A stretch of DNA of 64,000 nucleotides from a virus, in the IMG/VR virus record IMGVR_UViG_3300025168_000036; one strand, given 5' to 3'. The notes below the pieces were generated by a model that saw only the letters and a program-made list of their open reading frames with translations, ran no database searches and had not been told where the DNA came from. The position numbers were made by a program, and so were the translations under genes. Shown here piece after piece: positions 54,370 to 63,764 of this stretch. Position 1 is the stretch's first letter. The number at the start of each line of letters is the position of its first letter.

Positions 54370-54921
54370 TTATGAAGAATGAAAATTTCCATCGAGGTAT
54401 TTTTGTATATCTTCTTGAGAAAACTTACCTTTTAATAATCTAGTAAAATATCTTATTTCTTTCATAATAGGCTTCTTATCTTTTTTCCACCTTGTTTTAT
54501 CTAGAGTCTTTTTTAATTTATGTAAGTTAACACCTGAAATTCTTTTTAGATCTTCTTTTTGCTTAGACTTAAGCTTTAATCTTTCTTTGACCTTCGTTGC
54601 TGGTAGTGTGCCTTTTAGTTTTGGTTGCTCCTCACCTTTATGAAATACTCTACCATCCTTATGAACAAATTCCTTCATCCATCTCCAACCTCTATGGAAG
54701 CCTGTAGGTTTACTTGTTTGTTGGTCAATATCACCAAACTGTTCTTTATATCCATCTGACACACATGTGGAGCATGTAGTTGATTGTGTATCACCAGATA
54801 CTGGAGTAAATTGGCCACAAACTTTACATTCCATATATCTATACATAGCACCCTTTCTTTGATTCCAAGCTGTGCCAGGTCTATATTCTACACAATATTC
54901 TATATCACTATCTTTTTTCAT
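54370..54921 (-). CDS. Zinc-ribbon basic protein
   Basis: CKVC...CSTC; RGWRWMKEFVHKDG.VF.KGEEQP.LKGTL. Confidence 0.7.
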   Translation of the reverse strand: MKKDSDIEYCVEYRPGTAWNQRKGAMYRYMECKVCGQFTPVSGDTQSTTCSTCVSDGYKEQFGDIDQQTSKPTGFHRGWRWMKEFVHKDGRVFHKGEEQPKLKGTLPATKVKERLKLKSKQKEDLKRISGVNLHKLKKTLDKTRWKKDKKPIMKEIRYFTRLLKGKFSQEDIQKYLDGNFHSS

Positions 54922-55870
54922 AGTTCTTAATTTTTTTAGTTAATTTATCCCTTTCAATTTGTAGGTCCTTAAGACCCTTTTCTCCATATATATCACTATT
55001 AGAAGTTTTTTCTTCGGGAAAAGCAGCAATAACTTCATCTATTGTATATGGTGTGTTGAATTCCAAGCCGTCTGGCTTAGACATCTTAACTTGATCATCA
55101 AAGTCTATATTAGGCTTTAATTGTGCGAATGCCATGTTTGCAGCTATTACCATTGCAATAGCTAATGGGTCAAATACAAATATAATTAATATCATAAACC
55201 AATTTACAATATTTCCCATAGGTTGGCCTGTTAGATCAGCCATATACTTTAGTGGGCCTAATTCTCTAGCAGACTCATTACCTATTTGCATTTCCAGTAT
55301 CTTTACATCATATAATGCTATTGAATCTGTTACTGATGTTAGATTTAACTTGGCTTCTAATAGTTCTGATTGTTTTAGTTTTCTAACTCTTGATGAGGTT
55401 GTAGTTACTAATTGTCCAGTCTGCTCGTCAACATATTGAATCATTGTTGGATTTGCTAGTGCAGTTGTTAACTCTTTTACTGTTAGCTTATAGTCATCTC
55501 TAGACTCAATAAATCTGATATTTTTTGCATCTAAAATTTGTACTTGCTTATCTAAGAACTCTGATTGTGTATTTGTTTCTTGGAATGCTCCAGATAAGAA
55601 TCCATATATACCACCTGATGTAATTATCATTAATATAAATACTGCAAGTATTAGATATGATCTTAACCATTTATTGACTACCTCCCAATATTGATATAGC
55701 AAAGAAGCAACAATTAGCTTTGCAACTTCAAGTGTACCAGCCATTATTATAACTTCAGTACTTGCACCTGCAAATAGCTTACTTAGTCCAAATACTGAGT
55801 AAAATGCTGCAGAAGCAGACACTGAAAGTGCTGATATTGCTATTATAAAAGGAAATAGTCTCTTTCTCAT
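54908..55870 (-). CDS. Multi-pass membrane protein with coiled-coil loop
   Basis: Three N-terminal TMs, coiled coil, C-terminal TM IIFVFDPLAI. Confidence 0.75.
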   Translation of the reverse strand: MRKRLFPFIIAISALSVSASAAFYSVFGLSKLFAGASTEVIIMAGTLEVAKLIVASLLYQYWEVVNKWLRSYLILAVFILMIITSGGIYGFLSGAFQETNTQSEFLDKQVQILDAKNIRFIESRDDYKLTVKELTTALANPTMIQYVDEQTGQLVTTTSSRVRKLKQSELLEAKLNLTSVTDSIALYDVKILEMQIGNESARELGPLKYMADLTGQPMGNIVNWFMILIIFVFDPLAIAMVIAANMAFAQLKPNIDFDDQVKMSKPDGLEFNTPYTIDEVIAAFPEEKTSNSDIYGEKGLKDLQIERDKLTKKIKNYEKR

Positions 55871-61765: not shown

Positions 61766-62218
61766 TTAATTAAATTTATAAAACTTCTTTCTATTCATTA
61801 TTGACAACCCAATTGGTTGGTCTATATATTGTCTTCCATATATGTCAGTGTATATTTTATTAAATGAACTTTGTTGTAATTCATCTAGTGAAACAAACCC
61901 TATCATATCTAAATATGCCTCACAAGCACTACCTTCAAAATAATTATATGCACCTGGTAAGCCTGGAGTTGAAGCTACTTTACAGCAGCAATCATAGGTA
62001 TCTTTAATAGCTATATTAGGCCATAATGCATTTAACATTCCTTCACTAGGGTTAATACAATCTTGAATGATACCACTGAATATCCAGCTATCCATTGCTT
62101 GTTCTATTGAATCTGCTGTATCACAATACTTTGGTGAGTAATATATAGAATCACTAGTCTCTGGTATTTGAGCTGTTATTAATGAGGTTGACAATACTAA
62201 AAATAATAAACTTTTCAT
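61766..62218 (-). CDS. Secreted Cys-rich protein with short T9SS type A-like C-terminal sorting signal
   Basis: Signal peptide MKSLLFLVLSTSLITA-Q; C-terminus VSLDEL...IYTDIYGR...IGLSIMNRKKFYK. Confidence 0.6.
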   Translation of the reverse strand: MKSLLFLVLSTSLITAQIPETSDSIYYSPKYCDTADSIEQAMDSWIFSGIIQDCINPSEGMLNALWPNIAIKDTYDCCCKVASTPGLPGAYNYFEGSACEAYLDMIGFVSLDELQQSSFNKIYTDIYGRQYIDQPIGLSIMNRKKFYKFN

Positions 62219-62626: not shown

Positions 62627-62683
62627 TCCATTTTATTTTATAGTTATAATATAACAAATTTTATTGACATATGAAAACTTTTA

Positions 62684-63652
62684 TTAATAAAAGACTGTAA
62701 CATATCCATTCACTTCATATACCTCAGTAGGATTGTATTTAATAGCCTTGATAGTATATACATAGACTCCGGTTGCAACATCTCCATCCCACTCATCTAA
62801 TGAACTAGCACTTATCCATACTAGTCCACCCCACCTATTATATATTCTAACCTCCCACTCATCCCAGCAGTTATCTGCTAGCACTTGCCATGTATCATTC
62901 CATCCATCTCCATTTGGTGTTACTGCATTTGGTGCATAAATAGACGTTTCATCACATTCACTTTGAGAACAAGGCAGCCCAGTAATGCAATCTATATATT
63001 GAGTTAGAGTATGATATTCTGTAATTGTGTCAACTTGATAAATATATTCATAGACTAAACTTTCATTATAGATGGTATCAGTAATAAACTCAGTTATAGT
63101 AATTGTATCTAGTTCATATATTGTTATAGTGTCCGTTTCTATAATGGTAATAGTATCTGTAAGATATTCAATAACATCTACATATTCTATAATAGGATCA
63201 CAATCTCCGGGACATGGTCCTCCAAATTCAATTGAACTATATCCTAGTAGATTACCTCCAATGTTAATTTGCCATATACCTACTTCACCTTCGCAGAAGA
63301 ATCCTTCCTCATAGTATTGTACCCAACATTCTGCAATTGTATATGGATTAGCAACACTGTTATTCCATGCGTCAAATATATTTAATTCAATTGTACCTTG
63401 TGTGACCATTGGAAAGTCAAAGAAAGTAAATGTGTATTCAGGCCAATTTATATTTTGTGAGAAGTTACCACATGGTGGTATATCATCTAGTTCTGCATTG
63501 CCTAAGTATAAGCATATATCTGTAAGTCCTTCTTCGCAATCTACATCAATAGTTGCTGTATATGTTTCCCAATTAAAGTTAGTAATAACTGCATCACATT
63601 GTGCAGAGGTTGCCGGAGCCCATAGGGCTAGTAAGTAAATTAGCTTTCGCAT
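62684..63652 (-). CDS. Secreted protein with gliding-motility / T9SS type B C-terminal domain
   Basis: Signal peptide MRKLIYLLALWAPATSA-Q; IYAPNAVTPNGDGWNDTW...IYNRWG..VW...WDG...GVYVY...GYVTV. Confidence 0.88.
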   Translation of the reverse strand: MRKLIYLLALWAPATSAQCDAVITNFNWETYTATIDVDCEEGLTDICLYLGNAELDDIPPCGNFSQNINWPEYTFTFFDFPMVTQGTIELNIFDAWNNSVANPYTIAECWVQYYEEGFFCEGEVGIWQINIGGNLLGYSSIEFGGPCPGDCDPIIEYVDVIEYLTDTITIIETDTITIYELDTITITEFITDTIYNESLVYEYIYQVDTITEYHTLTQYIDCITGLPCSQSECDETSIYAPNAVTPNGDGWNDTWQVLADNCWDEWEVRIYNRWGGLVWISASSLDEWDGDVATGVYVYTIKAIKYNPTEVYEVNGYVTVFY

Positions 63653-63690
63653 TGTATTCCTGATTTTTTTTGTAAGATTAGTAATGATTG

Positions 63691-63764
63691 TGAACCAGAT
63701 AGGAGTCGAACCTATGACCTACAGCTTAGAAGGCTGTTGCTCTATCCAGCTGAGCTACTGGTCC
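63691..63764 (-). tRNA. tRNA-Arg (anticodon UCU)
   Basis: GGACCAG-TAGCTCAGCTGGATAGAGC-A-ACAGC CT TCT AA GCTGT-AGGTC-ATAGGTTCGACTCCTAT-CTGGTTC-A; CCA not encoded. Confidence 0.96.

What the first reader, a model, noticed from the sequence alone, without database searches (positions are those of the whole stretch)
62684..63652. Phage-encoded T9SS cargo with a stalk of host O-glycosylation sequons
Seen: Sec signal peptide (SA|Q), a Cys-rich N-domain, then a repetitive stalk YLTDTITIIETDTITIYELDTITITEFITDTIY...VDTIT with five D-T-I tripeptides, and a complete type B (gliding-motility) CTD (PNAVTPNGDG.ND, IYNRWG, WDG, GVYVY). Established: this CTD routes proteins through the Bacteroidota type IX secretion system, and D-(S/T)-(A/L/V/I/M/T) is the general Bacteroidota O-glycosylation sequon. 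Inference: the phage borrows the host T9SS and glycosylation pathway to display a glycosylated, stalked protein on the infected cell. Possible roles are superinfection exclusion, receptor masking, jamming of T9SS/gliding or grazing avoidance. No T9SS machinery is encoded in this window.
Basis: partly seen in the sequence, partly recalled or inferred. Interest (0 to 1): 0.85.

Follow-up and report, generated by a model that had tools for sequence, protein, structure and literature searches.

The report
Phage-encoded type IX secretion cargo protein
A large uncultured marine phage carries a gene for a protein built to be exported by its Bacteroidota host's type IX secretion system; it has a variable head, a repeat stalk packed with the host's sugar-attachment motif and a conserved secretion tail, but export, sugar coating and purpose are all untested.

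Summary
ORF 62684-63652 (-) encodes 322 aa in five parts:
- a Sec/SPI signal peptide ending A|Q
- a Cys-rich beta-sandwich head
- a 66-aa T/I/V/Y/D/E repeat with exactly five D-T-I sequons
- a Cys connector
- a complete type B T9SS CTD (TIGR04131 42.3 bits, cutoff 35; PF13585 60 bits, cutoff 27; fold match to CTDs in the F. johnsoniae translocon, Z 9.5)

It is phage DNA: the window has capsid, portal, terminase and baseplate genes, and the gene is identical on a 147-kb contig.

New here:
- It belongs to a family of at least 460 proteins (234 IMG/VR contigs). All contexts examined are phage-like, and no full-length homologue was found in ~185,000 prokaryote species genomes.
- The sequon-rich stalk separates these phage proteins from bacterial type B cargo (5.9 vs 1.3 sequons in the 90 aa before the CTD). 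Asp, not Glu, precedes the Thr.
- The gene moves as a cassette, usually with a 120-aa secreted partner. Here only the partner's last ~14 codons remain, next to a tRNA-Arg.
- No PorP/SprF shuttle is phage-encoded, so a host shuttle must be borrowed.

Glycosylation, surface display and biological role remain inference. Phage T9SS cargo is published (type A; Bellas 2020), and this scan has seen it on other DNA. I rate it a new variant of a known kind.

The parts
62684..63652 (-). Whole gene (322 codons plus stop): phage-encoded type B T9SS cargo
   Evidence: ORF list and translation. 100% identical on the 147,239-bp contig L177. dN/dS 0.03 against the L092 copy.
63602..63652 (-). Sec / signal peptidase I signal peptide, residues 1-17, cleavage T-S-A|Q exposing Gln18 (Bacteroidota Q-rule)
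   Evidence: Sequence. One of only four signal-peptide-like ORFs in the window. The A-Q-C-D/E junction is kept in 114 of 121 homologues. Q-rule literature: PMC5837995. No SignalP was available, so this is a heuristic call.
63203..63601 (-). Cys-rich head domain, residues 18-150, beta-sandwich with two short helices, function unknown
   Evidence: AF2 pLDDT ~70-88. Only generic beta-sandwich matches, Z ~7. The nearest Atlas cluster is 100% viral and 100% CHU_C. It is the most variable region (mean pairwise identity 52%, several length classes).
63005..63202 (-). Repeat region, residues 151-216: units x-Y-x-T-D-T-(I/V/L) with five D-T-I sequons
   Evidence: Copy number varies across the family (2-16 sequons, median 8). 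Spacing between sequons is even in 609 of 691 cases. AF2 pLDDT ~30. No tandem repeat at the DNA level.
62951..63004 (-). Connector with three nearly invariant cysteines (C222, C228, C233), residues 217-234
   Evidence: Alignments A1 and A2.
62687..62950 (-). Type B T9SS C-terminal sorting domain (CHU_C / TIGR04131), residues 235-322
   Evidence: HMMs above curated cut-offs. AF2 pLDDT 82-91. Best fold matches are substrate CTDs in the F. johnsoniae T9SS translocon: 8glk_D Z 9.5, rmsd 1.8 over 72 residues, also 8glj, 8gl8, 8gl6. 92% aa identity to L092 at only 52% third-codon-position identity.
63640..63684 (-). Remnant of the 3' end of the lost partner gene (last ~14 codons, reads LLILQKKSGIQCES* against LLLILQNYGTQCEN* in L092); overlaps the cargo gene's start
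   Evidence: Nucleotide homology to L092 begins at window 63680 and ends at 62676.
63690..63764 (-). tRNA-Arg(TCT) occupying the slot where syntenic relatives carry the partner gene
   Evidence: ARAGORN. Synteny with L003 and L177.
61766..62218 (-). Neighbouring 150-aa Cys-rich secreted protein (signal peptide ...I-T-A|Q); possibly part of the same exported-protein hot spot, link unproven
   Evidence: It has the highest sequon density in the window (3 in 150 aa). 63 marine homologues and no Pfam or PHROG family. Not found next to the CTD gene in the other loci.

Best explanation
The gene encodes a cargo protein that the phage has the infected Bacteroidota cell export, rather than a virion part.

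Proposed steps:
1. Sec translocation, then signal peptidase I cleavage before Gln18 (Q-rule). The Gln is probably cyclised by the host.
2. Oxidative folding in the periplasm: 12 Cys, most of them conserved.
3. Probable O-glycosylation of the Thr in the five D-T-I sequons by the host's general O-glycosylation system.
4. Recognition of the type B C-terminal domain by the T9SS translocon, then hand-over to a host PorP/SprF-type shuttle, because the phage encodes none. The protein then stays on the outer membrane with its variable head held out on the repeat segment.

The design is modular: variable head, conserved D-T-hydrophobic repeat, conserved CTD. It travels between phage genomes as a cassette, ancestrally with a 120-aa secreted partner that this phage has lost.

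The most likely purpose is to remodel the infected cell's surface, for example by excluding other phages or masking or competing with a T9SS-delivered receptor such as an SprB-like adhesin.

Shown: gene, architecture, family, phage context, selection. Inferred: export route, glycosylation, anchoring, role.
For: Phage origin:
- The window carries major head, portal, large terminase, baseplate and ligase genes.
- The gene is identical on a 147-kb contig with the same gene order.
- Homologues at 96-37% identity all sit in phage-like contexts, in at least three genome types. 234 IMG/VR contigs carry relatives.
- In ~185,000 species genomes only the CTD part matches.

Export signals:
- The signal peptide has an invariant A|Q-C junction. 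The Q-rule is Bacteroidota-specific (PMC5837995).
- The type B CTD scores above curated cut-offs and spans the full Pfam profile.
- The CTD model matches translocon-bound substrate CTDs at Z 9.5.
- The CTD keeps 92% aa identity at 52% third-position identity. Whole-gene dN/dS is 0.03.

Cargo rather than virion part:
- The gene lies in the non-structural region next to ligase, NT5C and dCMP deaminase genes.
- The same stalk+CTD module carries M43 metallopeptidase heads in other phages.

Glycosylation:
- There are 5 sequons against 1.39 expected, and 2-16 (median 8) across the family.
- In the repeat D and E are equally common, but D-T-hydrophobic outnumbers E-T-hydrophobic 805 to 120.
- The 90 aa before the CTD hold 5.9 sequons in phage proteins against 1.3 in bacterial type B proteins.
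- The motif is defined in PMC8550257.

Host shuttle:
- PorP/SprF is absent from the window, from 100 phage loci and from 5 phage records, one of them 100% complete. Positive controls worked.
- Orphan type B cargo served by a stand-alone shuttle has precedent in F. johnsoniae (PMC12618676).
Against: - There is no experimental evidence for export, glycosylation or surface anchoring.
- The host is unknown. The best large-terminase match in the phage database is a Microcystis phage (59%), ahead of Flavobacterium phages (55%).
- The repeat has no confident predicted structure (pLDDT ~30).
- Strict even spacing and the T/I/V/Y-rich composition also fit a purely structural beta-repeat.
- Repeat units descend from one another and homologues are related, so the sequon counts are not independent events.
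- The viral loci compared with bacterial ones were ranked by similarity to the query, which favours repeat-bearing proteins.
- Type B CTD-shuttle pairing is specific (PMC12618676), so a host shuttle that accepts this CTD is assumed, not shown.
- The partner gene has been lost here, so this copy might not work as the ancestral cassette did.
- The head has no recognisable function.
Confidence: 0.68

Rival explanations
1. The protein is a T9SS cargo, but the D-T-hydrophobic repeat is a structural element, not a glycosylation array. It would be an amphipathic beta-strand or beta-hairpin spacer or oligomerisation module, with Asp at strand ends or turns and Thr on one face. The match to the sequon would then be incidental.
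For: - Spacing between motifs is even in 609 of 691 cases.
- Six residues (T, I, V, Y, E, D) make up 83% of the region, a strongly beta-prone composition rather than that of a typical disordered glycosylated linker.
- The alternating pattern places Thr on one face and Ile plus Asp/Glu on the other.
- An earlier scan note (e1-5378836) found that an Asp-Ser excess in phage fibres was a structural stalk signature.
Against: - Asp is preferred over Glu nearly 7 to 1 before T-hydrophobic despite equal abundance. A generic beta-repeat would not need that, but the sequon does.
- 89% of D-T-x before the CTD have a sequon-compatible third residue.
- The protein must cross the periplasm, where the host glycosylation system acts.
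- AF2 does not predict any beta structure in the repeat.
- The two readings are not exclusive: a structured stalk can also be glycosylated.
Confidence: 0.3
2. The gene is a decaying leftover of a two-gene cassette. Having lost its 120-aa secreted partner, the remaining CTD protein no longer has a function in this phage.
For: Only the last ~14 codons of the partner survive upstream, abutted by a tRNA gene. The partner is directly upstream in 43 of 86 related viral genes, and it is more conserved than the cargo (70% vs 32% mean column identity).
Against: - The ORF is intact with all conserved Cys and CTD motifs.
- dN/dS against the partnered L092 copy is 0.03.
- Partner-less copies persist in other lineages: L001/L002 at 83% and L005/L006 at 50% identity.
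- An SD-like AGGA sits 7 nt before the ATG.
Confidence: 0.07
3. It is a virion or capsid-decoration protein in which the CHU_C domain serves as an Ig-like binding module, not as a secretion signal.
For: The CTD has an Ig-like beta-sandwich fold, and phages often decorate virions with such domains. Fold searches also list many non-T9SS Ig-like domains at Z 7-8.
Against: - A conserved cleavable Sec signal peptide and 12 Cys would send it out of the cytoplasm where virions assemble.
- The gene lies outside the structural module.
- It has no PHROG structural family.
- The top fold matches are T9SS substrate CTDs.
- Sister proteins carry a secreted-type M43 peptidase head.
Confidence: 0.04
4. The segment is host DNA or an assembly chimera rather than phage DNA.
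For: The CTD family is otherwise a Bacteroidota chromosomal family.
Against: - The same gene order appears on an independent 147-kb contig and on three short contigs from other samples.
- There is a syntenic slot in L003/L004.
- GC content and strand bias are uniform across the window.
- No bacterial genome holds a full-length homologue.
Confidence: 0.01

Closest known systems
Type B CTD cargo of Flavobacterium johnsoniae (SprB with SprF; Fjoh_3952 with Fjoh_3951; orphans Fjoh_1123/1720/4934 with shuttle Fjoh_1677) - PMC12618676, PMC9143113
   Same: It has a Sec signal peptide plus a C-terminal TIGR04131/PF13585 domain. Like the three orphan substrates, it has no adjacent shuttle gene. The expected fate is retention on the outer membrane through a PorP/SprF-type shuttle.
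   Different: It is encoded by a phage and is very small (322 aa, against thousands for SprB). The head has no bacterial homologue. A sequon-rich D-T-hydrophobic repeat directly precedes the CTD, which is rare in bacterial type B proteins (2 of 83 with 4 or more sequons). CTD identity to any bacterial genome is only 30-50%.
Phage-encoded T9SS cargo of 'Cryophage' (Bellas et al. 2020, Nat Commun, PMC7468147)
   Same: These are phage genes with T9SS sorting domains. They are variable between phage variants and were proposed to hijack host secretion for competition or superinfection effects.
   Different: Those carry type A CTDs (PorV route, LPS-anchored or released) on recognisable enzymes (endoglucanase, GH39, PA14) in a freshwater or ice phage. 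Here the CTD is type B (PorP/SprF route), the head is unknown, the stalk repeat is conserved, and the gene sits in a two-gene cassette spread across marine phage lineages.
Bacteroidota general O-glycosylation substrates, motif (D)(S/T)(A/I/L/V/M/T) (PMC8550257, PMC8729774)
   Same: The same three-residue motif occurs on a protein that transits the periplasm. Known glycoproteins include T9SS cargo.
   Different: No glycan has been demonstrated. Here the motif is the core of a tandem repeat, up to 16 copies in relatives, rather than scattered sites.
Phage-encoded envelope proteins that block receptors or superinfection (for example T5 Llp lipoprotein, phi80/N15 Cor, P22 SieA). This comparison rests on my own knowledge and was not checked here.
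   Same: A phage gene outside the structural module uses a host export pathway to place a small protein in the cell envelope during infection.
   Different: The export routes differ (Lol or inner membrane against T9SS). There is no sequence or fold relationship, and the function here is conjecture.

Membership tests
T9SS type B C-terminal sorting domain proteins (TIGR04131 / PF13585 CHU_C) | HMM score above the curated cut-off | tested here: met
   TIGR04131 42.3 bits vs 35. PF13585 60 bits vs 27, covering profile positions 3-86 of 86.
T9SS type B C-terminal sorting domain proteins (TIGR04131 / PF13585 CHU_C) | Domain at the extreme C-terminus | tested here: met
   The match covers residues 240-320 of 322.
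T9SS type B C-terminal sorting domain proteins (TIGR04131 / PF13585 CHU_C) | N-terminal Sec signal peptide | tested here: met
   n/h/c regions with T-S-A|Q. Found by the heuristic screen. The junction is conserved in 114 of 121 homologues. No SignalP run was possible.
T9SS type B C-terminal sorting domain proteins (TIGR04131 / PF13585 CHU_C) | Ig-like beta-sandwich CTD fold as in solved T9SS substrates | tested here: met
   8glk_D Z 9.5, rmsd 1.8 over 72 residues; 8glj_D Z 8.2; 8gl8_D Z 8.1; 8gl6_D Z 7.9. I did not check which CTD type those solved substrates are, and many unrelated Ig-like domains score Z 7-8.
T9SS type B C-terminal sorting domain proteins (TIGR04131 / PF13585 CHU_C) | Five conserved motifs A-E required for secretion (Paillat et al. 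2025) | tested here: inconclusive
   The motifs are defined only in a figure that was not readable here. The conserved blocks PNxxTPNGDGxND, YNRWG, WxG and GxYxY are present and nearly invariant in the family.
T9SS type B C-terminal sorting domain proteins (TIGR04131 / PF13585 CHU_C) | Cognate PorP/SprF-like shuttle (usually the adjacent gene) | tested here: not met
   None in the window (best E 0.44), in 100 phage loci or in 5 phage records. Controls were positive. This is not strictly defining: 3 of 12 F. johnsoniae type B substrates are orphans served by a distant shuttle.
T9SS type B C-terminal sorting domain proteins (TIGR04131 / PF13585 CHU_C) | Secretion depends on the T9SS | not testable with these tools
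   Needs expression in wild-type and T9SS-mutant hosts.
Bacteroidota general O-glycosylation substrates | Sequon D-(S/T)-(A/I/L/V/M/T) | tested here: met
   Five D-T-I. Family median is 8. Asp is specifically required rather than Glu.
Bacteroidota general O-glycosylation substrates | Protein reaches the periplasm | tested here: met
   Signal peptide and conserved cysteines. This is inference from sequence.
Bacteroidota general O-glycosylation substrates | Glycan attached to the Ser/Thr of the sequon | not testable with these tools
   Needs glycoproteomics.
Phage-encoded T9SS cargo (as in Cryophage, PMC7468147) | T9SS sorting domain gene inside a bona fide phage genome | tested here: met
Dockerin type I (for the lost partner protein only) | Pfam PF00404 above cut-off, duplicated Ca-binding loop-helix | tested here: not met
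   Best result E 0.094, 13.4 bits vs cut-off 22.9, in 1 of 4 partners tested; only a single loop-helix. It is a resemblance only.

The most novel reading that the evidence does not exclude
Marine Bacteroidota phages share a phage-specific, portable export module: a D-T-hydrophobic glycosylation stalk plus a type B CTD, often with a small secreted partner. The module loads interchangeable phage heads onto a host PorP/SprF shuttle, and so onto the gliding/T9SS track. The infected cell's surface is thereby re-dressed with glycan-shielded phage proteins that exclude rival phages or displace receptor adhesins.
Probability: 0.2. Interest if true: 0.8.

Novelty: new variant of a known kind. Interest (0 to 1): 0.55.

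Why it matters
T9SS-delivered surface proteins and the gliding apparatus are important phage receptors in flavobacteria (my own background knowledge). Flavobacteriia are major degraders of marine organic matter.

A widespread, mobile family of phage genes that feeds phage-designed proteins into the host's T9SS would mean phages routinely rewrite the surface of infected Bacteroidota. That could affect superinfection, adhesion, gliding and particle colonisation.

The conserved stalk also gives a clean natural test bed with a small protein. Does the host's general O-glycosylation system act on foreign cargo, and how do type B CTDs choose their shuttle?

The practical value is modest until a host or an expression system is available.

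Tried and rejected
- **Whole genome:** none is held for the window. The 147-kb record behind L177 is not searchable, so the roughly 83 kb of this phage outside the window was not screened for shuttle genes or further cargo.
- **Fold search 'atlas'** was not installed.
- **Foldseek on the whole model** gave only low-TM multi-domain Ig/FN3 hits.
- **The head** has no informative fold match (Z ~7, generic sandwiches) and no feature hit in the protein Atlas.
- **The partner's model** (pLDDT 65) has a best Z of 5.3, so no fold was assigned.
- **The dockerin reading of the partner's C-terminus** fails the Pfam cut-off.
- **Tandem Repeats Finder** sees no DNA-level repeat, so the protein repeat is old or degenerate at the nucleotide level.
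- **Promoter and terminator scan** is at chance level (16 promoter-like sites vs 14.0 +/- 3.7), so no transcription unit could be defined.
- **Cultured-phage database:** no full-length homologue, only CTD-only hits in two huge uncultured phages.
- **PHROGs:** no family for the gene or its secreted neighbour.
- **An ice-binding (T-x-T face) reading of the repeat** was considered and dropped for lack of any fold or family support.
- **A lipoprotein signal** was considered and rejected: Gln at position -1 does not fit a lipobox.
Full report

Yes. The ORF at 62684..63652 on the minus strand encodes 322 residues.
- Its N-terminus is a textbook Sec/SPI signal: MRK, an 11-residue hydrophobic core, then T-S-A followed by Gln18.
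- Residues 19-151 hold 8 of the 12 cysteines.
- Residues 151-216 are a low-complexity repeat with exactly five D-T-I tripeptides, at 166, 174, 182, 192 and 208.
- The C-terminus passes both curated models of the type B T9SS sorting domain. TIGR04131 scores 42.3 bits against a cut-off of 35. PF13585 scores 60 bits against 27 and covers profile positions 3-86 of 86.
- Five sequons compare with 1.39 expected from composition shuffles (179 of 20,000 shuffles reach five). Density is 1.55 per 100 aa against 0.37 for the window's proteome.

**2. Is it phage?**

- The window encodes a major head protein, portal, large terminase, baseplate wedge and DNA ligase, all on one strand.
- GC content and skew are uniform up to the end of the window.
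- The gene, together with the tRNA upstream and the genes downstream, is 100% identical on an independent 147,239-bp metagenomic contig (L177).
- The closest cultured relatives by large terminase are a Microcystis phage (59%) and the 160-kb Flavobacterium myophages vB_FspM_immuto (55%).
- The host is not identified. However, the T9SS domain and the Gln after the signal peptide point to Bacteroidota. That 'Q-rule' is specific to Bacteroidetes (PMC5837995, PMC10653852). It is obeyed here, in the 150-aa neighbour and in the partner family.

**3. The family**

- A protein search found 460 relatives, all carrying PF13585, mostly from marine metagenomes. Many are full-length at 36-96% identity.
- Every context I opened looks like phage:
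  - a 49-kb contig (83% identity);
  - 52- and 28-kb contigs syntenic with the window (51% identity), running MoxR-type AAA, dCMP deaminase, small ORFs, cargo gene, DUF4494, NT5C, ligase, ClpP;
  - 113-133-kb contigs (50% identity);
  - an 85-kb contig;
  - 65-67-kb contigs with ART-PolyVal, SLT and DUF5675 genes (37-40% identity).
- IMG/VR holds 234 contigs with relatives.
- A scan of one genome per ~185,000 prokaryote species found 547 CTD matches. All those listed are in Bacteroidota-type MAGs or genomes at 30-50% identity, and essentially all are confined to query residues ~230-322. None extends through the head.
- The protein Atlas agrees: the head's nearest structural cluster is 100% viral and 100% CHU_C.
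- The full-length architecture therefore looks phage-specific. The limit on this claim is that the genome scan was seeded with CTD peptide patterns.

**4. Anatomy**

AlphaFold2 with 121 sequences gave the following:
- Head, residues 19-150: a beta-sandwich with two short helices, pLDDT ~70-88.
- CTD: confident, pLDDT 82-91.
- Repeat, residues 151-216: no confidence (pLDDT ~30) and no secondary structure.

Fold searches:
- The CTD's best matches are substrate CTDs trapped in the F. johnsoniae translocon: 8glk_D at Z 9.5 and rmsd 1.8 over 72 residues, plus 8glj, 8gl8 and 8gl6.
- The head finds only generic sandwiches (Z ~7).

So 'stalk' is a reasonable picture but is not structurally supported.

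Across the family the head is the most variable part (52% mean pairwise identity, several length classes) and the CTD the most conserved (75%).

**5. The repeat and the sequon**

- The unit is roughly x-Y-x-T-D-T-(I/V/L). Copy number varies, giving 2-16 sequons per protein with a median of 8. Of all D-T-x before the CTD, 89% have a sequon-compatible third residue.
- In 114 repeat regions Asp and Glu are equally common (1108 vs 1204). Yet 73% of Asp and only 10% of Glu are followed by T-[AILVMT], which is 805 vs 120. A generic amphipathic beta-repeat would not need Asp; the Bacteroidota O-glycosylation motif (D)(S/T)(A/I/L/V/M/T) does (PMC8550257).
- The 90 residues before the CTD carry 5.9 sequons on average in 85 phage proteins (83 have at least four). 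In 83 bacterial type B proteins the average is 1.3 (2 have at least four).

Caveats:
- Repeat units and homologues are not independent.
- The viral set was ranked by similarity to the query.
- Spacing is even in 609 of 691 cases, and T/I/V/Y/E/D make up 83% of residues. Both point to beta structure, so a structural role is likely as well, or instead.
- There is no tandem repeat at the DNA level.

**6. Cassette behaviour and the lost partner**

- In 43 of 86 related viral genes a ~120-aa ORF ends a few bases inside the cargo gene's start.
- That partner has its own signal peptide ending in Gln. Its mature N-terminus Q-C-N-Q-H-V-F is invariant. It has conserved cysteines and a C-terminal D-x-(D/N)-x-(D/S)-G...D-L-L-x-F-L-x-N-Y-G segment that only resembles half a dockerin (Pfam E 0.094, below cut-off).
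- It is more conserved than the cargo (70% vs 32% mean column identity). Its model has no informative fold match.
- The window lacks it. Nucleotide homology to the closest relative (L092: 96% aa, 89% nt) runs only from 63680 to 62676, and the flanks are unrelated.
- The 14 codons upstream still read as the partner's C-terminus (LLILQKKSGIQCES*), with tRNA-Arg(TCT) abutting them.
- In the syntenic relative L003 the same slot holds an intact partner and a different head allele.
- The gene is mosaic. Head and repeat are 93-96% identical to L092 at the nucleotide level. The CTD is 81% identical, with 52% identity at third positions but 92% at the protein level.
- Whole-gene dN/dS is 0.03.
- In other phages the same stalk+CTD sits on larger heads, two of which are M43 zinc peptidases.

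Taken together this describes a portable, recombining 'head - stalk - anchor' export module under strong purifying selection.

**7. Who supplies the shuttle?**

- Type B CTDs are collected from the translocon by PorP/SprF-like shuttles, which anchor them. Pairing is specific, and F. johnsoniae has three orphan substrates served by one stand-alone shuttle (PMC12618676, PMC9143113).
- SprF-type shuttles are disulfide-linked to the moving GldK track (PMC12635249).
- PF11751 is absent from five phage records carrying this family, including a 100%-complete 67.5-kb genome. The same search finds 10 and 14 copies in two Bacteroidota genomes.
- A local PorP/SprF HMM finds nothing in the window (best E 0.44) or in 100 phage loci. 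It does find shuttle genes within 8 kb of 10 of 80 bacterial type B genes.
- Only four ORFs in the window have signal-peptide-like N-termini, and none is a barrel candidate with a family hit.
- The cargo must therefore use a host shuttle. That makes competition with host type B adhesins conceivable, but this is inference.

**8. Verdict**

- Glycosylation is plausible (I put it near 50%). Surface display is probable. The proposed biological roles are untested.
- Phage-encoded T9SS cargo is already in the literature for type A CTDs (Bellas et al. 2020, PMC7468147). Q-rule-obeying secreted phage proteins have been noted in P. gingivalis phages (PMC10367356). This scan has also met phage T9SS cargo on other DNA, including a type B case, though not this family.
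- What I did not find described is the large marine, phage-specific type B family, its sequon-repeat stalk as a hallmark, its cassette mobility with a conserved secreted partner, and its dependence on a host shuttle.
- I rate it a new variant of a known kind, with interest 0.55.

Noticed in passing
L092:1341-1703; also L003:9651-10013, L007:7651-8013, L010:7651-8010 (alignment A3): A highly conserved ~120-aa secreted protein family overlaps the start of the cargo gene in about half of the related phages. It has an invariant mature N-terminus QCNQHVF, conserved cysteines and a half-dockerin-like C-terminus. It has no Pfam family and no informative fold match. It has no CTD of its own, so it may ride out on the cargo protein or act in the periplasm.
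   Followed up: partly
window 61766-62218 (-): A 150-aa Cys-rich protein with a Q-rule signal peptide (...I-T-A|Q) and the highest O-glycosylation sequon density in the window (3 in 150 aa). It has 63 marine homologues and no known family. It does not co-occur with the cargo gene in the other loci.
   Followed up: partly
window 63690-63764 (-): tRNA-Arg(TCT) sits exactly where syntenic relatives carry the partner gene, abutting the partner's 14-codon remnant. This suggests that insertion or replacement by the tRNA deleted the partner.
   Followed up: partly
L005:389-3253 and L006:383-3247: A 113-133-kb phage that carries a family member also encodes a 954-aa protein with a type A T9SS CTD (PF18962 Por_Secre_tail). 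It lies directly after an 811-aa CHAP/PG_binding_1 protein, so one phage may use both T9SS sorting types.
   Followed up: no
L141:2070-4979, L143:1035-3890: Phage proteins of 951-969 aa place an M43 (pappalysin-type) zinc metallopeptidase head on the same sequon-repeat stalk plus type B CTD.
   Followed up: partly
window 62687-62950 vs L092:2392-2656: There is mosaicism within the gene. The CTD segment is far more diverged at synonymous sites (52% third-position identity) than the head and repeat (82-91%), while keeping 92% protein identity. This implies a recombination breakpoint near residue 235.
   Followed up: partly
viral loci L131-L171: Nearly all phage type B CTD proteins retrieved start their mature chain with Q-(T)-C-D/E, even those with unrelated signal peptides and much larger heads. 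The invariant Cys right after the Q-rule Gln is unexplained.
   Followed up: no
window 54908-55870 (-): A 320-aa ORF with a signal-peptide or TM-like N-terminus (MRKRLFPFIIAISALSVSASA...) and no Pfam hit. It is the only other sizeable exported or membrane candidate in the window.
   Followed up: partly
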